Virus record (IMG/VR): IMGVR_UViG_3300032092_000001
Length of the DNA stretch: 64,000 nt
Reading direction: 5' to 3' (one strand)
DNA from: a virus
Lineage: Duplodnaviria > Caudoviricetes
The translations under genes were made by a program, and so were the position numbers. The notes under the pieces are model-generated. The model made no database searches and had not been told where the DNA came from. It saw only the letters and a list, made by a program, of their open reading frames with translations. Shown here in pieces: positions 3,593-18,272 of the stretch. How positions within the stretch are numbered: position 1 is the stretch's first letter; every line of letters starts with the position of its first letter.

Positions 3593-4105
3593 TCAATTAT
3601 TTTTATACCACTCAGGTGTTTCTCTATTTTTCCAAACCGCAAATCCTGACTTGGCTTCACGGTAGTAATTTCTATATGATTCAATAACATCATTACCTAC
3701 TTTGAACTCATCTCCCATCGCTAATGGAGGGGTTGTAAAATCAATATCATGAATGTTTGGTCTATTGGTTAAACACCACTCAATTACATCTTGAGATTTG
3801 TGACGTTTACCATATCGGTATGTATATTCTTTACACAACTCAAGTCCCAAATCACATAGGTAAAGATAGTTACTTAAACTCTCACGAGTCCAAATAGCAC
3901 AAGGATGATTCCTATGAGATAACTTGTACGGTACTTGGTCGTTTACTTGGTCGGTACTTGGTGGGTACTTGGTGGGTACTTGGTGGGTTACATGGTGGAC
4001 ACCACACAATAGTTGAGCGGTTTCCAATATCATCTTAACGACGTGTTTGTCACAGTGATACTGAGCACATTTTTTAACGTCAAAATCCAAAAAGAAAATA
4101 TTCAT
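3593..4105 (-). CDS. Pyrimidine-dimer DNA glycosylase / endonuclease V-like protein
   Basis: MNIFFLD...HCDKHVVKMILETAQLL and HRNHPCAIWTRES motifs of the Pyr_excise-type family. Confidence 0.8.
   Translation of the reverse strand: MNIFFLDFDVKKCAQYHCDKHVVKMILETAQLLCGVHHVTHQVPTKYPPSTDQVNDQVPYKLSHRNHPCAIWTRESLSNYLYLCDLGLELCKEYTYRYGKRHKSQDVIEWCLTNRPNIHDIDFTTPPLAMGDEFKVGNDVIESYRNYYREAKSGFAVWKNRETPEWYKNN
3931..3986 (+). repeat. Intragenic 11-nt tandem repeat
   Basis: GTACTTGGTGG x3 perfect (3954-3986) preceded by two imperfect units (GTACTTGGTCG, TTTACTTGGTCG). Confidence 0.9.
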
Positions 4106-4376: not shown

Positions 4377-4451
4377 TGAAGAAGACGGGAATCGAACCTC
4401 GTGGCACAAGGGTTTTCGGACCCTTTGCTCTACCTTCTGAGCTACTTCTTC
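4377..4451 (-). tRNA. tRNA-Phe-like with aberrant 8-nt anticodon loop (TCCGAAAA) and bulged T-stem
   Basis: GAAGAAG/CTTCTTC acceptor + A73; GCTC-AGAAGGTA-GAGC D-arm; AAGGG/CCCTT anticodon stem; TTCGATT T-loop. Confidence 0.7.
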
Positions 4452-4458
4452 ATTTATA

Positions 4459-5187
4459 TTATTTACTTAAAACTTCCTTGTTGTAGTAGTCATCAAAACC
4501 TACTAACATCTCAGAAATTGTTTTGGTACCTTCACTCTTAATTACTTCATCAATCAACCCAAATTCCTTAGCCTCATCTGAGTTATACCATCTATCTCTC
4601 CTTGAGAACTCCAATACCTCGTCAACCGTTTTCCCACAATTCTCAGCAATCATCTTAAACAAAATGTAGTTGTATTTCTCAGCTTCCATTTGATTAATTC
4701 TTGTGTCCTGCACATTACCCTCCGTTCCGTGACTAACTTGGTGAGTCATGACTTTGGAATATACAAGTGATGAACGTTTACCTTTGGTCCCTGATGATAA
4801 CAACACCGAGCCCATTGACGCACACATCCCAATGTTTGTGGTTGCAACATCTGACTTAATGTAGTTCATCAAATCAACGATACCCAAACCACAGAGAACT
4901 GAACCACCAGGTGAGTTAATATATAACGTAATGTCACGTTGTTCAACTGAGTCCAAAAATAACAACTGAGCCTGAACAATATCCGACATATGTTGGTTAA
5001 CCGCTCCCGACACCCACAAAATTCGTTCTCTCATTAATCGTGAGAAAATATCAATCTGTGTTGCTCTTAATTCTCTTTCCTCTAACACATAAGGTGTTAA
5101 ACCATTTTCAAATCTGTCCAAATTTAGTGAAGAAATACCCTCACTCATTGCAAATTTTCTAAACTCTTTTCCGTAATTCATTTTCAT
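4459..5187 (-). CDS. clpP: ATP-dependent Clp protease proteolytic subunit
   Basis: DIFSRLMRERI, YINSPGGSV, CASMG (catalytic Ser), HQ (catalytic His), RDRW motifs. Confidence 0.95.
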   Translation of the reverse strand: MKMNYGKEFRKFAMSEGISSLNLDRFENGLTPYVLEERELRATQIDIFSRLMRERILWVSGAVNQHMSDIVQAQLLFLDSVEQRDITLYINSPGGSVLCGLGIVDLMNYIKSDVATTNIGMCASMGSVLLSSGTKGKRSSLVYSKVMTHQVSHGTEGNVQDTRINQMEAEKYNYILFKMIAENCGKTVDEVLEFSRRDRWYNSDEAKEFGLIDEVIKSEGTKTISEMLVGFDDYYNKEVLSK

Positions 5188-5194
5188 TTCTTAA

Positions 5195-5605
5195 AAAGGT
5201 AAAGGTCGTCTTCTCTGTCCGTGTGGTATTCACGAGACGACCTTTGGTTAGTGGATATTACCATATATAGTATTTCTTCGGATATGTCCCAAGAGAGTGG
5301 GACCGTAGTAACCATCCACCGAAGACCTATACTCTCACCCATATTACAGGGTTACCCTCAGGACATCTTAACCCTACCCCCAAAGTTACATGGTCGGTCT
5401 CACTCGTAAGAAGAGTGTATATTGTAGAATTGTCCAGTGTTTCTACAACTTGTGGATTGTATTACAACCATTTAAGGTCCCTAACCCCTTCCATCCATAA
5501 TTGGGGTATCTGATTCAAATTTGTGTAGCCTCCCCCATAGCCTTGGAGCCTTCCCGCCAGGTTCACACTGTCCAACCGCAGATAAATCGGTATTGTGGGG
5601 TCTTC
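5195..5605 (-). ncRNA. Candidate ~400-nt structured RNA immediately upstream of clpP
   Basis: No credible ORF; GC-rich; perfect 11-bp stem 5201-5211/5235-5245 plus stems GTCCC/GGGAC, CTTCGG/CCGAAG, CACTC/GAGTG, TTGTAGAA/TTCTACAA, CCCC/GGGG, ACCG/CGGT. Confidence 0.55.
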
Positions 5606-5613
5606 TTTACAAA

Positions 5614-5979
5614 TTAGATTACTTCGGAAATTGCTTCGTCAGCATATTCCATAATAATATCGTTTTCAACACCTTCTGTAGCACTTACGAATGCGTCTCT
5701 CAAAACATCTTCGTCAATACTTGGTACAATTTCACGACCATCTACGTCAAATGTTACCACATCATTAGCATCTAATGAATTAATCATTTCATCAAAGATG
5801 TACTCATTAATTTTGTTGGTGTATTCAACCAAGAAGTTTTCAAGTTGTTCTCTTGTGAAAACGATATCCGCTTCTTCAACTACGAAACCCGCATCGGATT
5901 TAACTTCATTTAATTGTGATTGGATTTCATTCAATTTTTCAATCAACTCACTGTTTTGGTTTTTGTTTTTTTTGCTCAT
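5614..5979 (-). CDS. Hypothetical acidic protein (121 aa)
   Basis: ORF track; TATATTTG promoter motif near 6010. Confidence 0.8.
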   Translation of the reverse strand: MSKKNKNQNSELIEKLNEIQSQLNEVKSDAGFVVEEADIVFTREQLENFLVEYTNKINEYIFDEMINSLDANDVVTFDVDGREIVPSIDEDVLRDAFVSATEGVENDIIMEYADEAISEVI

Positions 5980-6029
5980 AATATTTATTTTTTGTTTTTA
6001 TTTTCTTTTACAAATATACACCAGATTTC

Positions 6030-6227
6030 TTATTCTAACAAGGTGTAGATGTTATTTTCATCCAAAATAATTTCACCCTTTTCTCCAATGGTAATACACA
6101 AACCTTCCATCACATTTTGGAAGTTTGTTTCACTCATAACATTAGCCTTGACAAGTTTTTTGTATCCCAAAATGAAGTCAATCAATTCAGGTTCACAGAT
6201 AAATCCTTTTTCAATTACTGGTATCAT
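6030..6227 (-). CDS. Hypothetical protein (65 aa)
   Basis: ORF track; follows tRNA-Cys. Confidence 0.6.
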   Translation of the reverse strand: MIPVIEKGFICEPELIDFILGYKKLVKANVMSETNFQNVMEGLCITIGEKGEIILDENNIYTLLE

Positions 6228-6243
6228 ATTGTATTAAATTTTG

Positions 6244-6315
6244 AGGTCGGAGTTGGAATCGAACCAACATAAGAGCTTTTGCAGAGCTCCACTTAAACCA
6301 TTCAGACATCCGACC
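6244..6315 (-). tRNA. tRNA-Cys(GCA)
   Basis: GGTCGGA/TCCGACC acceptor, U73 discriminator, GAGCT-CTGCAAA-AGCTC anticodon arm, GTTGG-TTCGATT-CCAAC T-arm. Confidence 0.92.
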
Positions 6316-6398
6316 TTATTTAGAATACAAAGATAATAATACTTATCACTACAAATCAAATTTTTTATTAATTATTTTTTCATTATATTTATCAATGT

Positions 6399-7055
6399 AT
6401 GGCAGTAAATATTGAGTTCTTTTTTAAACAGTTCACTAAAATGAATCATACAATTAATTGTGAGAATGGTTTGCAATTAATTTGGTCGGGAGATTATAAG
6501 GAAAGATTTGTAAAGAGATTCAAAGACAAGGAAGATGTTCCAATATACTTCATTAATAATCCCCAAGATTCACCGTACACAAAGGAAGCTCTCACACAGT
6601 TTATTGAGTCCAAATTAGAATCATTTAGAGAAATTATTCCAATAGATGAAAGTTATATTACAAGTCGTCTATACGAGATTGACTCTGAAGAAGCATTATT
6701 TATTCCAAATAAAGTATTAAGAAACATTACAAATAAATTACAAAAAGTCACGGTTGACAAATCAGTAAACCCCGTAAGATTAATTGGAGAATTTGACGGT
6801 CAGTTTGAAATATCTCAAGATGATGAGAATATACTTGTTTATATAGATTTCTCACTTTCAGAATTACAGTTAAACGGAGAAGAAATAGATAGTTCCCATG
6901 ATGAATACGATGAATGGATTGATTATTTCAGATACGATAATAACGAGTTCCTTGAAGACGGGATTTGGGTCTGTTTTAGTGAATTAACCAATAACAAAAA
7001 CTTTTATAACTATGAGTGGATGGGTTGGTATAGTAATTTCTATTTCATTACCTAA
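6399..7055 (+). CDS. Hypothetical protein (218 aa)
   Basis: ORF track; TATTTAT upstream. Confidence 0.8.
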   Translation: MAVNIEFFFKQFTKMNHTINCENGLQLIWSGDYKERFVKRFKDKEDVPIYFINNPQDSPYTKEALTQFIESKLESFREIIPIDESYITSRLYEIDSEEALFIPNKVLRNITNKLQKVTVDKSVNPVRLIGEFDGQFEISQDDENILVYIDFSLSELQLNGEEIDSSHDEYDEWIDYFRYDNNEFLEDGIWVCFSELTNNKNFYNYEWMGWYSNFYFIT

Positions 7056-8625
7056 TTAATACCACGTGTCCTTTTTCTACGTGTCCAATTCCTCTGTCGT
7101 CCCTATACGTCATTATCCAGTTATAAACACCTGTCTGACAATAGTACCCACTACCATCATTACCATTCCAAGTTTGGTTTAATGATTTAATATTATAAAC
7201 CATCATACCATCTCTACTGTAAATCTTCATATCAGGTTCATAAACTGACATACCAGCAATTTTAAACACGTCGTTGAATCCATCATTATTTGGTGTAAAT
7301 GAATTGGGAACATACAATCTATAACAAGTGTTTGTTCTAATGGTGATTGCATTTAACTCACTCTCACAACCCAAAGTATCAGTTCCATAAACTGTAATGG
7401 TATGGTCCATAGTCGTGTCAGGCCAAAGAACATTTAATTCAAAGTCAGTATCAGGTTGTAAAACACCATCAACATGCCAAGTATATTCAATACCAACACT
7501 ATCAGGAGCCAAATAAGTTTGGTTATAAGGGTCAGTACAGAAATCAATGAAGTTTGATTGAGCAAATATTTCAGGAGCTTCAAACTTTGGTCTCACATAA
7601 ATCTCAACGGAATCAACAACAGGACACCCATATATGTTAACAAAATACAATGAATAATATGTACCTGAATTAAACCCAGTGAAAACATTCCCAACCAAAT
7701 TCTCTCCATTCCAAAATCCACCTGAAGGACTTGCTGATAACTGAACCGTCTCTTCCAAACAGATACCAATATTGTCTTGGCCAAATGTAATTAAAGTATC
7801 CACAACAGTAATTGTTGTATCAATAATATCACCAATACATCCATCAACAGTTGTTTCTTGTACAGATATTACATAATCACCTGGTACCCCACCCCATTCA
7901 ACATCAATACTATTTGTTCCGTTGTCAGTCATAGTACCTCCACCAGAAATAGTCCAATCATATGTTGAACCAACAGTATTTACAACTGAATATGTTTCAA
8001 CAAGTCCAACACATATCGTATCCATTGGAACATCAATAGGTGAAGTTACAACATCACCTCCAAGAACAGTTCCATTGAATACTTGAAACGGAGAATCAAA
8101 ACAAGACTCGGTTCCCCAACTACCCATAGTTCCATCAGCATAAGGAGTAACCTCAATCAACAACGACAAAGGGTCACACTCATCAGTAACTTGTAACTGA
8201 ACACAAAAAGACCATAGACAATCAAGACCAAAATCCCCCCAATCATTACCAGGGTTTCCATCAGTAGGTCCTTGAGGTCCCTCATAGAAATAACCCGGTC
8301 CAACAGTTAATGTCCCATCATTATTTGTAACACTTTCAGACCATAACCATTGTTGAGGTGGTACCGCTCCACCACAATCATCAGGTCCTGAAATAGGACT
8401 GTGTGATACCCATCCCGGTCCCAAAGTCAATCCAAACCCCTCAATCCAATTGGACCCAAAGTTAGTTCCATTCCAACCGTTCATCGTGTAACACATAGTT
8501 ACAACAGTTTCCGGTTCATAAGTCCCATTAGTAGGTGATGGCGTTAATGTAAAAGATTGGACCCCAGCACATTGTGAAAGGACAATATTGGGGATTAATA
8601 ATAGGAAAAATAGGATTGTTCTCAT
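7048..8625 (-). CDS. Secreted protein with gliding-motility-associated (T9SS type-B / CHU_C) C-terminal domain and PKD/Ig-like repeats
   Basis: Signal peptide MRTILFFLLLIPNIVLSQC; C-terminus LYVPNSFTPNNDGFNDVFKI...IYSRDG...WNG...GVY...KGHVVLIR. Confidence 0.85.
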   Translation of the reverse strand: MRTILFFLLLIPNIVLSQCAGVQSFTLTPSPTNGTYEPETVVTMCYTMNGWNGTNFGSNWIEGFGLTLGPGWVSHSPISGPDDCGGAVPPQQWLWSESVTNNDGTLTVGPGYFYEGPQGPTDGNPGNDWGDFGLDCLWSFCVQLQVTDECDPLSLLIEVTPYADGTMGSWGTESCFDSPFQVFNGTVLGGDVVTSPIDVPMDTICVGLVETYSVVNTVGSTYDWTISGGGTMTDNGTNSIDVEWGGVPGDYVISVQETTVDGCIGDIIDTTITVVDTLITFGQDNIGICLEETVQLSASPSGGFWNGENLVGNVFTGFNSGTYYSLYFVNIYGCPVVDSVEIYVRPKFEAPEIFAQSNFIDFCTDPYNQTYLAPDSVGIEYTWHVDGVLQPDTDFELNVLWPDTTMDHTITVYGTDTLGCESELNAITIRTNTCYRLYVPNSFTPNNDGFNDVFKIAGMSVYEPDMKIYSRDGMMVYNIKSLNQTWNGNDGSGYYCQTGVYNWIMTYRDDRGIGHVEKGHVVLIR

Positions 8626-8669
8626 GCCGATAAATATCAACATAGATACAAATAAGATTATAATAGTTG

Positions 8670-17364: not shown

Positions 17365-18272
17365 GATTAGTTAATATAGCCTGAGATTACAGCTTTATGT
17401 GAGAACCTTTTGAAGTATTATTGTTTTACTTCGTATCCACTTCCTTTTGAGAAGTATTTCTCAGTCACGGTCTTTTAGGTTTACCACTCCTTGAGGTCTA
17501 AGTTACTCTCTTCTTACTCAACTCTTTCCGAGGTTGCCACCCCAGTTCGTCCTTGCGGGATTAAAGGTTTTTCGTAAAACTACAGTCGGACTTGGGGTCT
17601 TTCTGTGCAATGAACGGCTCATTACTATGTAGTGACCTTTCACCTAAACCTGATGGACACTTTTCCTTAATGTATTTTTTAATTATTGGATAATTTTGGA
17701 ATCCATTAGTTTTGTGTCGTAGATGTGTCAGAGTAGTGGTCCACCGTAAGCTCCGTCTCCTTTTGGGCGACAGAATACTAAACTACTCCGTGAAGTGTCC
17801 CCACCTCCATATTTCAAGATTACTTCATAAAGATACCTTGGTAGGTCGTCTTTAAGGATAGTAGCGACACCACTCGTTCTCTATCTTACCTTTCGGTTTT
17901 AAGTCCTCTATCGTATTGGAACCCGCAATAGTGTAATTGGATAATCACATTTTTTACTTGATTCCTATGGGTTATTCTTGTTGTTCTTCCGAACTCAACC
18001 TGATAATCTACTTTACCAGGTCACCCTTCCATTTTCCCTACGAAGTCATCCTCGGTACTAAAGGTTTGGTGATATCCCACTTGTGTACTTGAGTTCTCCA
18101 CCCCTTACGGGGTTTCAAACCGCAGCCTCCTCAACACGGGGGAGACCACTTTATCCTACTTTAGTAGTTTATTTAAGGACCATACACGGCCCATTATCGT
18201 TTATCTCTTTTCAGTGCTCATATTCGTCACACGAAGGTGGGAATACGACTTACTCAGAGAATGGATAATCTA
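17365..18272 (-). ncRNA. Large (~900 nt) ornate structured ncRNA, GOLLD/ROOL-like
   Basis: No credible ORF; GC-richer than flanks; minus-strand GNRA hairpins (ACCCC-GUAA-GGGGU, ACC-GAAA-GGU, CC-GCAA-GG); long-range helices 17655-62/17793-800, 17731-37/17782-88, 17714-19/17864-69; own promoters and terminator. Confidence 0.8.

What the first reader, a model, noticed from the sequence alone, without database searches (positions are those of the whole stretch)
5195..5605. ~400-nt structured RNA in the clpP leader, ending in an 11-bp hairpin next to the start codon
Seen: ORF-free, GC-rich, at least seven helices, and a hairpin loop (GAGAGT near 5293) with a complementary ACTCTC near 5330 that could form a pseudoknot. 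A perfect AAAGGTCGTCT/AGACGACCTTT stem is followed on the minus strand by ACCTTTTT, 8-14 nt before the clpP ATG. There is no room for a separate clpP promoter. Inference: an unknown cis-regulatory element (attenuator, thermosensor or riboswitch) controlling ClpP, or a second stand-alone ncRNA.
Basis: partly seen in the sequence, partly recalled or inferred. Interest (0 to 1): 0.7.

Follow-up and report, generated by a model that had tools for sequence, protein, structure and literature searches.

The report
Large knotted phage RNA beside tRNAs
The gene-free stretch in front of clpP is not a clpP control element but a roughly 400-base, heavily knotted non-coding RNA of an uncatalogued family that giant lake phages carry next to their tRNA genes; what it does is unknown, as it is for the GOLLD and ROOL RNAs found in the same setting.

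Summary
The stretch is a real RNA gene on the minus strand, with its conserved core at 5201-5604.

- **Conservation:** about 100 viral and metagenome loci hold it, giving 52 distinct full-length copies.
- **Structure:** a 17-helix model with four pseudoknots is 96.8% paired, against about 40% in register-shifted controls. Of its 93 pairs, 63 show compensatory changes.
- **No known family:** nothing in Rfam 15 matches. There is no conserved ORF, no match in 50,697 phage records, and no pattern hit in genomes of 185,579 prokaryote species.
- **Not a clpP leader:** clpP follows the RNA in only 5 of 52 copies, all from one near-identical subclade. A tRNA gene follows in 31 of 52, starting 6-13 nt after the terminal hairpin, and some copies sit inside tRNA arrays.
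- **The 11-bp hairpin:** two covarying pseudoknots tie it into the fold.
- **Expression:** contigs from four freshwater or river metatranscriptome studies cover the RNA. This is supportive, not decisive.
- **Source:** jumbo phages, probably of Bacteroidota, most of which also encode GOLLD elsewhere in the genome.

Best reading: a stand-alone, processed, trans-acting phage RNA of a new class, function unknown. This scan has already found the same family on other DNA (e1-5392088, e1-5392107).

The parts
5201..5604 (-). Conserved core of the RNA gene, from the invariant AAGACCCCAC at the 5' end to the 3' end of the terminal stem. The whole intergenic stretch is 5188-5613.
   Evidence: nhmmer match 5190-5613 at E 1e-135. 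Alignment A3 of 52 distinct copies. Columns mapped to window coordinates.
5595..5602 (-). Invariant 5' element GACCCCAC. It may pair with the invariant UGGGG at 5533-5537 (candidate P1).
   Evidence: Invariant in all 52 copies, and the proposed pairs are complementary in 51-52 of 52. Because neither side varies, covariation cannot test the pairing.
5573..5591 (-). P2 hairpin
   Evidence: 4 of its 6 pairs carry compensatory changes; 99.6% paired.
5523..5568 (-). P3, P4 and PK-D, an H-type pseudoknot around the invariant GGCUAUGGGGGA.
   Evidence: Helices 2-4 are 97.6-99% paired. Pairs 63:76 and 73:95 change on both sides in 24 and 14 copies respectively.
5519..5520 (-). Site of optional insert domain 1 (about 75 nt). 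The window lacks it; 24 of 52 copies have it.
   Evidence: A3 columns 104-180. The insert has its own covarying helices.
5485..5506 (-). P5 hairpin, whose loop holds the invariant UUAUGG.
   Evidence: 100% paired; 2 of 4 pairs are compensatory.
5466..5479 (-). P6 hairpin
   Evidence: 100% paired; 3 of 4 pairs are compensatory.
5421..5449 (-). P7 hairpin (9 bp). Its loop bases GGACA (5431-5435) form PK-C.
   Evidence: 99.6% paired; 4 compensatory pairs.
5361..5365 (-). 3' strand of PK-C (UGUCC), which pairs with the P7 loop. It lies in the near-invariant AAGAUGUCCUGAGGGUA.
   Evidence: 99.2% paired. G:C becomes A:U in 5 copies.
5401..5417 (-). P8 hairpin
   Evidence: 100% paired; 2 compensatory pairs.
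5376..5398 (-). P9 hairpin with the invariant loop GUAACU (5384-5389). The loop is complementary to the invariant GGUUAC at 5308-5313 (candidate PK-E).
   Evidence: The stem is 94% paired, with 5 of 7 pairs compensatory. The loop-loop complementarity holds in 52 of 52 copies but never varies, so covariation cannot test it.
5338..5351 (-). P10. In the window it is a short hairpin. In 32 of 52 copies it closes optional insert domain 2 (about 70 nt).
   Evidence: 4 of 4 pairs are compensatory; 96.8% paired.
5275..5325 (-). P11 (UCUUCGG/CCGAAGA). It encloses the invariant internal loop GGAUGGUUACUA and P12.
   Evidence: 100% paired; 6 of 7 pairs are compensatory.
5286..5303 (-). P12 hairpin (GUCCCA/UGGGAC). 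Its loop bases UCUCU (5292-5296) form PK-A.
   Evidence: 100% paired; 6 of 6 pairs are compensatory.
5212..5216 (-). 3' strand of PK-A (AGAGA), in the internal loop of the terminal hairpin. It pairs with the P12 loop.
   Evidence: 5 of 5 pairs are compensatory; 98.5% paired.
5259..5263 (-). 5' strand of PK-B (UGGUA). It pairs with the apical loop UACCA (5224-5228) of the terminal hairpin.
   Evidence: 5 of 5 pairs are compensatory; 92.6% paired.
5202..5244 (-). It has an outer stem, an inner CGUG/CACG stem, an asymmetric internal loop and a conserved apical loop.
   Evidence: Outer stem: 8 of 9 pairs compensatory. Inner stem: 4 of 4 compensatory. The outer stem's lower 82% pairing comes from a 2-column misregister in the divergent clade.
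5188..5201 (-). Tail UACCUUUUUAAGAA running up to the clpP ATG. Together with P13 it looks like a terminator.
   Evidence: Read directly from the sequence. The consensus terminator scan did not call it. In other copies a tRNA begins 6-13 nt after P13.
5614..5979 (-). Upstream neighbour p121, an acidic 121-aa protein of unknown function. Its stop codon abuts the RNA.
   Evidence: It is the upstream gene in 27 of 52 copies. It has no Pfam or PHROG family and 443 uncharacterised homologues.
6011..6018 (-). It lies 32 nt upstream of the p121 start and could be the promoter of a p121-RNA(-clpP) transcript.
   Evidence: Pattern match only. Use as a promoter is inferred, not shown.
4459..5187 (-). 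Downstream neighbour clpP
   Evidence: Pfam CLP_protease, E 8.9e-55.
4377..4451 (-). tRNA-Phe-like gene. In most relatives of this clade it directly follows the RNA; here clpP lies between the two.
   Evidence: Rfam tRNA at 53.5 bits; ARAGORN does not call it. In L015 and L008 the order is RNA, then tRNA-Phe 9 nt later.

Best explanation
Window 5201-5604 (minus strand) encodes a stand-alone, stable, highly structured non-coding RNA of about 400 nt. It belongs to an uncatalogued family carried, one copy per genome, by freshwater jumbo phages that probably infect Bacteroidota.

**Shown**
- A conserved 17-helix fold with four covarying pseudoknots and long invariant unpaired stretches.
- No conserved ORF.
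- The transcribed strand is the minus strand.
- The family's home is next to, or inside, phage tRNA clusters, whatever protein genes lie nearby.

**Inferred**
- The RNA is made as part of a longer transcript. In this window that transcript would run p121-RNA-clpP, perhaps from the TAnnTTTG motif at 6018-6011.
- It is then cut out. In most phages the 3' end would come from RNase P cleaving at the 5' end of the tRNA that starts 6-13 nt after the terminal stem. Where a tRNA lies 4 nt upstream, tRNA 3' processing would set the 5' end.
- In this window clpP has come to lie between the RNA and its tRNA. Here the terminal hairpin plus U5 would end or pause most transcripts, and read-through would supply clpP.
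- The 3' domain locks the terminal hairpin with two pseudoknots. This should shield the 3' end from exonucleases, much as the MALAT1 3' end is made by RNase P and protected by its own structure.
- The RNA then acts in trans during infection. By analogy with GOLLD and ROOL it may act as an RNA-only or RNA-scaffolded particle, or as a decoy tied to tRNA or translation biology.

My odds: stand-alone ncRNA of a new family, about 0.85; release by tRNA-processing enzymes, about 0.6; any particular trans function, at most 0.25.
For: **Structure and strand**
- 93 pairs are 96.8% paired, against 38-46% when slid. 63 pairs have compensatory change. The covariation score is 0.387 against 0.06-0.08 slid and 0.16 shuffled, with 0 of 500 shuffles as high.
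- Abundant conserved G:U pairs (for example 255:283 in 52 of 52 copies, 72:96 in 46) would be A:C on the other strand, so the minus strand is the RNA.

**Not a known family**
- No Rfam family matches even at E up to 10 on the window, or up to 1 on four divergent homologues.
- ARAGORN calls no tmRNA.
- The longest ORFs differ in place and length between copies.

**Genomic context**
- The downstream element is a tRNA in 31 of 52 copies. Its identity varies (Phe, Met, Glu, Asp, Val and Thr), and in the 22 copies where ARAGORN calls it close by (within 30 nt) it starts 6-13 nt after the terminal stem.
- Copies L081, L132 and L149 have a tRNA ending 4 nt upstream and another starting 6-7 nt downstream.
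- L084 and L085 lie in long tRNA arrays.
- There is one copy per jumbo contig, 10-29 kb away from GOLLD in 4 of 5 contigs.

**Distribution**
- Found only in viral and metagenome contigs: about 30 IMG/VR contigs and 71 metagenome loci.
- No pattern hit in one genome each of 185,579 prokaryote species.

**Expression**
- In four RNA libraries from four studies, contigs cover the RNA at summed depths of 15-1200, against about 0-6 on clpP and p121.
- One 424-nt contig (X2) spans 5215-5635 and stops there.

**Host**
- A neighbouring gene carries a CHU_C type IX secretion signal.
- The nearest ClpP matches are in huge uncultured phages and Prevotella Lak phages.
Against: - No transcript ends were mapped. 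The RNA evidence is assembled contigs, whose depth is summed over relatives.
- The RNA core is more conserved than its flanks, so it recruits more relatives at the 85% threshold.
- For contigs nearly identical to the window, the RNA (depth 8-16) exceeds clpP (5.6) only about 2-3 fold.
- No promoter of its own is evident, and in this window clpP has no other visible promoter. A cis effect on clpP here therefore cannot be excluded as a side effect.
- Nothing computed bears on the function. The self-assembly and decoy ideas rest on analogy only.
- Some close relatives have lost most of the RNA (L007) or all but the hairpin (L009, L020), so it is dispensable for at least some phages.
Confidence: 0.82

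Rival explanations
1. One reading: a cis-acting leader of clpP (attenuator, thermosensor or riboswitch). On this view the terminal hairpin plus U-tract is the switchable terminator or a sequestering element next to the start codon.
For: - In this window the terminal stem ends 12 nt before the clpP ATG.
- A U5 tract follows the stem.
- No separate clpP promoter fits in the gap.
- clpP must therefore be transcribed through the RNA.
Against: - clpP follows the RNA in only 5 of 52 distinct copies, all one near-identical subclade. Elsewhere the next element is a tRNA (31), a 173-179-aa ORF (6) or something else (10).
- Related phages place a tRNA and two small ORFs between the RNA and clpP (L015, L008), or have clpP with no RNA before it (L009-L018).
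- The terminal hairpin is fixed in the fold by two covarying pseudoknots and shows no sign of an alternative pairing.
- Copies inside tRNA arrays have no mRNA to regulate.
Confidence: 0.04
2. A 3' element of the p121 mRNA, or the RNA partner of the p121 protein. It would either stabilise or terminate the upstream message, or form a particle with p121.
For: - In 27 of 52 copies the RNA begins 1-17 nt after the p121 stop codon, while the downstream gene varies.
- L076 has a distant p121-like ORF upstream.
- p121 is a large uncharacterised family of 443 homologues, seen on contigs of up to about 305 kb.
Against: - 23 copies have other upstream neighbours, including tRNAs ending 4 nt away.
- p121 occurs without the RNA in L009-L018 and L020.
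- p121 is strongly acidic, which is unusual for an RNA-binding protein (my inference from the sequence).
- The linkage may be no more than shared synteny within one phage clade.
Confidence: 0.07
3. A catalytic or mobile RNA: a diverged self-splicing intron, RNase P-like ribozyme, tmRNA-like RNA, or the RNA of a mobile element.
For: - It has ribozyme-like size and complexity, with pseudoknots and long invariant unpaired stretches.
- It is present in some closely related phages and absent from others, and carries modular optional domains.
- A tRNA-processing ribozyme would make sense in a tRNA cluster.
Against: - No Rfam intron, RNase P, tmRNA or other model matches, even at E up to 10.
- ARAGORN calls no tmRNA.
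- There are no flanking exon halves: the RNA lies between whole genes.
- No reverse transcriptase, transposase or endonuclease gene is linked to it.
- The reduced forms look like deletions that leave the 3' domain or the hairpin behind, not like precise excisions.
Confidence: 0.05

Closest known systems
GOLLD RNA (Rfam RF02032; cryo-EM 14-mer, Kretsch et al. 2025, PMC12286853)
   Same: - A large, ornate, pseudoknotted non-coding RNA of phages with unknown function.
- Located near tRNA islands (PMC12286853).
- A conserved core with variable, optional domains.
- Found in the same jumbo phage genomes: the window at 17378-17790, and 4 of 5 contigs.
   Different: - No match to the GOLLD model at E up to 10.
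- About 400-535 nt rather than 800 nt or more.
- A separate locus 10-29 kb from GOLLD, so it is not GOLLD's variable 5' half.
- One complete 268-kb phage contig has this RNA but no GOLLD.
- Whether it forms multimers is unknown.
ROOL RNA (Rfam RF03087)
   Same: - A phage or prophage RNA of about 500-600 nt with several pseudoknots.
- Often near tRNA islands, with no known protein partner (PMC12286853).
- The size range overlaps the longer copies here (up to 535 nt).
   Different: - No match to the ROOL model at E up to 10 on the window, or up to 1 on four homologues.
- ROOL was described from the rumen, and, from my recollection, from Firmicutes phages; this family comes from freshwater jumbo phages with signs of Bacteroidota hosts.
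- No hit in bacterial genomes, meaning no prophage copies at the sensitivity of the pattern used.
MALAT1-mascRNA type 3'-end formation (an analogy from established knowledge, not a homologue)
   Same: - A long structured RNA lies immediately upstream of a tRNA or tRNA-like unit, so RNase P cleavage would create its 3' end.
- That end is then buried in the RNA's own tertiary structure.
- Here the tRNA starts 6-13 nt after a terminal hairpin held by two pseudoknots.
   Different: - MALAT1 is eukaryotic and nuclear, and protects its end with a triple helix.
- Processing here is inferred from gene spacing only.
- In this window the tRNA is displaced by clpP.
Candidate structured RNAs predicted from IMG/VR (10,006 csRNAs; PMC10690425)
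   Same: They use the same data source (IMG/VR) and the same kind of evidence (covariation). Pieces of this RNA could be among those unnamed candidates.
   Different: - The paper names no large RNA adjacent to tRNAs, and mentions neither GOLLD nor ROOL.
- Its supplementary files are not held, so overlap could not be checked.

Membership tests
GOLLD (RF02032) | Match to the family covariance model (conserved 3' domain) | tested here: not met
   cmscan of 5000-5800 at E up to 10 gives no GOLLD hit. The true GOLLD of this window scores 306 bits at 17378-17790.
GOLLD (RF02032) | Phage-encoded and located near tRNA genes | tested here: met
   tRNA downstream in 31 of 52 copies, and some copies lie inside tRNA arrays. 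This is context only and does not establish membership.
ROOL (RF03087) | Match to the family covariance model | tested here: not met
   No ROOL hit at E up to 10 on the window, nor at E up to 1 on L081, L085, L076 and L061.
GOLLD/ROOL-like RNA cages | Self-assembly into a closed homo-oligomer | not testable with these tools
   This needs in vitro transcription followed by native gel, SEC-MALS or cryo-EM.
Cis-regulatory leader or riboswitch of clpP | Consistently placed upstream of the same gene or pathway in homologues | tested here: not met
   clpP is downstream in 5 of 52 copies. clpP occurs without the RNA in L009-L018.
Cis-regulatory leader or riboswitch of clpP | An expression platform with mutually exclusive pairings (terminator versus antiterminator, or start-site sequestration) | tested here: inconclusive
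   The terminal hairpin's loops covary with PK-A and PK-B partners, which points to one fixed fold. A specific search for alternative pairings was not made.
Intrinsic terminator | G+C-rich stem directly followed by a U-tract, ending the transcription unit | tested here: inconclusive
   The window has the stem, then 3 nt, then U5, but the consensus scan does not call it. In 31 of 52 copies a tRNA with no promoter space follows within a few nt (6-13 nt where ARAGORN calls it close by), so read-through must occur.
tmRNA | tRNA-like domain formed by the two ends, plus a tag reading frame | tested here: not met
   ARAGORN finds no tmRNA in the window. There is no Rfam tmRNA hit, and the covariation scan found no helix between the two ends of the RNA.
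RNase P RNA | Match to the bacterial or archaeal RNase P models (P4 core, conserved regions CR-I to CR-V) | tested here: not met
   No RNase P model hit at E up to 10. ACAGAGAAG, which superficially resembles CR-V, is not conserved in the divergent clade.
Group I or group II intron | Match to the intron core models, with flanking exon halves | tested here: not met
   No Rfam hit. The RNA lies between complete genes or tRNAs.

The most novel reading that the evidence does not exclude
This would be a third, independent class of large phage RNA that, like GOLLD and ROOL, is made from tRNA-cluster transcripts and works as an RNA-only machine. Possible forms are a self-assembling particle, or a decoy or sequestering scaffold for a host factor that acts on tRNAs or ribosomes, for example an anti-defence RNA. 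Three unrelated RNA folds in the same genomic niche would point to a general, still unknown need of large phages that only big structured RNAs meet.
Probability: 0.25. Interest if true: 0.88.

Novelty: new variant of a known kind. Interest (0 to 1): 0.72.

Why it matters
GOLLD and ROOL are among the largest bacterial or phage RNAs without a known function. Both sit in phage tRNA islands, and both were recently shown to form RNA-only cages (PMC12286853).

A further, unrelated fold in the same niche makes the open question 'what do big RNAs do for phages next to their tRNAs?' more general and easier to test. This family is:
- well supported by covariation;
- compact, at about 400 nt with optional domains;
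- often present in the same genomes as GOLLD.

Its compactness makes it a tractable target for cryo-EM and biochemistry, and comparing the three classes could show what they share.

For this window, the practical result is a corrected annotation: the stretch is an RNA gene, not a clpP regulator.

Tried and rejected
- **Single-sequence folding:** neither strand folds better than shuffled sequence (z -0.81 and -1.08). It is therefore not evidence either way.
- **RNAalifold consensus:** run alone on A2 and A3, it gave partly wrong long-range pairs. One example is ACCCCA:UGAGGGU, which about 12 copies with G351A contradict. I replaced it with a covariation-driven helix search.
- **Raw mutual information:** it was swamped by clade signal within the optional inserts.
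rejected.
- **Other pairings:** GAAGACC:GGUCUUC, the closing stem in the minimum-free-energy fold, is rejected because the compensatory change in L006 and L019 supports UCUUCGG:CCGAAGA instead. GUAACC:GGUUAC is rejected because the first partner varies without compensation.
- **Cultured phages:** blastn against 50,697 phage records found no match.
- **Own genome:** none is held for this window.
- **Chance hits:** the 18-mer hits in L053, L059 and L067 lie inside a coding gene.
- **A two-block pattern scan of viral contigs:** it returned only 3 loci.
- **Promoter and terminator consensus scan:** nothing usable within the RNA. The TAnnTTTG at 5388-5381 lies in the P9 loop and is not conserved.
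- **p121, p65, the 173-aa ORF and a 73-aa ORF:** no PHROG family.
- **Literature:** five searches and four papers gave no description of this RNA or of its invariant sequence strings. The supplements of PMC10690425 are not held.
- **The depth spike at 5937-6066 in X4:** it comes from 31-nt T-rich contigs and I treat it as a low-complexity artefact.
Full report
**1. What is at the coordinates**

Window 5188-5613 is the gap between two minus-strand genes. One encodes an acidic 121-aa protein, p121 (5614-5979). The other is clpP (4459-5187; Pfam CLP_protease, E 8.9e-55). The gap's G+C is 45-46%, against about 29-40% around it.

The perfect stem AAAGGTCGTCT/AGACGACCTTT (5200-5210 and 5234-5244) is there as described. 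So are the ACCUUUUU tail and the 12-nt distance to the clpP ATG.

The window also holds:
- tRNA genes on the same strand: tRNA-Cys at 6243-6315 and a tRNA-Phe-like gene at 4377-4451;
- a full GOLLD RNA at 17378-17790, scoring 306 bits.

No whole genome is held for the window. The identical p121 occurs on a 285-kb contig, so the source is a jumbo phage.

**2. Is it more than chance?**

Not from this sequence alone. Neither strand folds better than shuffles (z -0.81 and -1.08). By my rough estimate, one perfect 11-bp stem per 64 kb is about what chance gives. Comparison with relatives settles the matter.

Sources of homologues:
- relatives of clpP in IMG/VR gave 50 loci, 12 of which hold a homologue of the stretch;
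- conserved-word scans added more viral contigs and 71 metagenome loci.

Together these gave 52 distinct full-length copies, aligned as A3.

I searched for helices by covariation and assembled a model of 93 pairs in 17 helices. Tested on A3:

| Measure | Model | Control |
|---|---|---|
| Cells paired | 96.8% | 38-46% for partners slid by 1-3 columns |
| Pairs with changes on both sides | 63 | 13-19 when slid |
| Covariation score | 0.387 | 0.06-0.08 slid; 0.16 shuffled |
| Shuffles reaching the observed value | 0 of 500 | - |

Conserved G:U pairs would be A:C on the other strand, which makes the minus strand the RNA. No ORF is conserved: the longest ORF in each copy is 14-68 codons and begins at different alignment columns.

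**3. Anatomy (window coordinates, minus strand)**

In 5' to 3' order:
- the invariant GACCCCAC (5602-5595);
- P2;
- an H-type pseudoknot (P3, P4 and PK-D) around the invariant GGCUAUGGGGGA;
- P5 and P6;
- P7, whose loop GGACA pairs with UGUCC 70 nt downstream (PK-C);
- P8, P9 and P10;
- a 3' domain, described below.

In the 3' domain, P11 encloses the invariant GGAUGGUUACUA and the hairpin P12. The P12 loop UCUCU (5296-5292) pairs with AGAGA (5216-5212) in the internal loop of the terminal hairpin. This is PK-A, with 5 of 5 pairs covarying. Separately, UGGUA (5263-5259) pairs with the apical loop UACCA (5228-5224) of the same hairpin. This is PK-B, also with 5 of 5 covarying.

It is not a free-standing terminator or thermosensor.

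GAGAGU:ACUCUC is broken at its central pairs in 20-22 of 52 copies.

Two further complementarities hold in 51-52 of 52 copies (CCCCA:UGGGG) and in all 52 (GGUUAC:GUAACU) but never vary, so they remain untestable candidates.

Two optional domains of about 75 and 70 nt occur in all four combinations among the copies. Lengths from the 5' element to the terminal stem run from 401 to 535 nt.

**4. Context decides against a clpP leader**

Among the 52 distinct copies:

| Element directly downstream | Copies |
|---|---|
| tRNA gene | 31 |
| 173-179-aa ORF | 6 |
| clpP | 5 |
| other | 10 |

- In the 22 copies where ARAGORN calls the tRNA close by, it starts 6-13 nt after the terminal stem. Its identity varies: Phe, Met, Glu, Asp, Val and Thr.
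- The five clpP cases are the window and four copies about 95-97% identical to it.
- In L015 and L008 the order is RNA, then tRNA-Phe, then two small ORFs, then clpP.
- In L081, L132 and L149 a tRNA ends 4 nt before the RNA and another begins 6-7 nt after it. L084 and L085 lie in long tRNA arrays with neither p121 nor clpP.
- Phages of the L009-L018 type keep p121 and clpP but not the RNA. Only a small remnant of the terminal hairpin is left between p121 and the tRNA. L007 keeps only the 3' domain.
- The upstream gene is p121 in 27 of 52 copies. The rest have other neighbours, so I read this as clade synteny rather than a functional bond.

**5. Identity**

- No Rfam 15 family matches, at E up to 10 on the window or up to 1 on four divergent homologues. 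That covers GOLLD, ROOL, RNase P, tmRNA, introns and riboswitches.
- ARAGORN calls no tmRNA.
- blastn against 50,697 phage records finds nothing.
- A 25-base two-block pattern that hits more than 100 viral and metagenome loci hits no genome among 185,579 prokaryote species.
- Each of five jumbo contigs (185-294 kb) has one copy. Four of them also have GOLLD, 10-29 kb away. One complete 268-kb contig has this RNA but no GOLLD.
- Literature searches, including searches for the invariant sequence strings, found no description. A catalogue of 10,006 unnamed IMG/VR candidates could contain pieces of it, but that could not be checked.
- The host is probably in Bacteroidota. A neighbouring gene ends in a CHU_C type IX secretion signal, and the nearest ClpP matches lie in huge uncultured phages and Prevotella Lak phages.

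**6. Expression**

Contigs from four metatranscriptome runs, each from a different study (three freshwater, one riverine), were laid on 4377-6320.
- They cover the RNA at summed depths of 15-1200, against about 0-6 on clpP and p121.
- In run X2 a 424-nt contig spans 5215-5635 and ends there.
- In X5 a contig joins 5296 to 5595, which is the L007-like short form.

Caveats:
- these are assembled contigs;
- depth sums over relatives, and the conserved core recruits more of them;
- for contigs near-identical to the window the excess over clpP is only about 2-3 fold.

I count this as support for a stable RNA, not as proof of its ends.

**7. How it most likely works**

Shown: a conserved, knotted, non-coding fold, in single copy, whose home is the phage tRNA cluster.

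Inferred:
- It is co-transcribed with its neighbours. In the window this may start from the TAnnTTTG motif at 6018-6011.
- RNase P cutting at the next tRNA sets the 3' end, and the double pseudoknot on the terminal hairpin protects that end.
- In this window clpP has come to lie between the RNA and its tRNA-Phe-like gene. Here the hairpin plus U5 would act as a leaky end, with read-through feeding clpP.
- The RNA then acts in trans.

Its function is unknown. By analogy with GOLLD and ROOL (PMC12286853) I favour an RNA-only or scaffold role linked to tRNA or translation biology, but nothing computed here tests that.

**8. Comparison and novelty**

The RNA resembles GOLLD and ROOL in kind and in context, but it fails their membership tests: no covariance-model match, a different size, and a separate locus. 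It is a new family within the informal kind 'large ornate phage RNAs in tRNA islands'.

This scan has already reported the same family on other DNA (e1-5392088, e1-5392107) and reached the same conclusion. My tests here were run independently of those reports.

**Verdict:** The clpP-regulator reading is wrong and the stand-alone-ncRNA reading is right. Interest is moderately high.

Noticed in passing
window 17378-17790 (-): A full match to GOLLD RNA (Rfam RF02032, 306 bits), 12 kb from this RNA. Four of five related jumbo contigs also carry GOLLD, 10-29 kb from their copy of this RNA.
   Followed up: partly
window 4377-4451 (-): A tRNA-like gene that Rfam scores at 53.5 bits but ARAGORN does not call. 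In 8 related copies ARAGORN also misses this gene, and there it directly follows the RNA.
   Followed up: partly
L007:2629-2761; L009:2480-2530; L020 (same region): A series of reduced forms. L007 keeps only the 3' domain, with its 5' AAGACCCC joined to GAGGUCUU. L009 and L020 keep only a small remnant of the terminal hairpin between p121 and tRNA-Phe. A metatranscriptome contig in X5 shows the L007-like join (5296 to 5595).
   Followed up: partly
window 5614-5979 (-): p121 is an acidic 121-aa protein with a short basic N-terminus. It has 443 uncharacterised metagenomic homologues and no Pfam or PHROG family. It is the upstream neighbour of the RNA in about half of the copies.
   Followed up: partly
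window 7048-8643 (-): A 531-aa phage protein with a C-terminal CHU_C type IX secretion signal (E 3.7e-15) and a weak PKD-like domain. It points to a Bacteroidota host.
   Followed up: partly
They lie just upstream of tRNA-Cys and of p121. No such conserved motif lies directly before the RNA.
   Followed up: no
window 5980-6010: A T-rich 31-mer upstream of p121 attracts 31-nt contigs of very high depth in RNA libraries (up to about 1750 in X4). This is probably a low-complexity artefact.
   Followed up: no
L057:10011-10532; L072:5173-5712: A conserved 173-179-aa ORF (starting MKYKI.../MKKYKI...) with no PHROG family takes clpP's place directly after the RNA in six copies. A tRNA follows it.
   Followed up: no
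window 3593-4105 (-): A 170-aa protein with a weak Pyr_excise match (pyrimidine dimer DNA glycosylase; E 4.4e-5, just above the cut-off).
   Followed up: no
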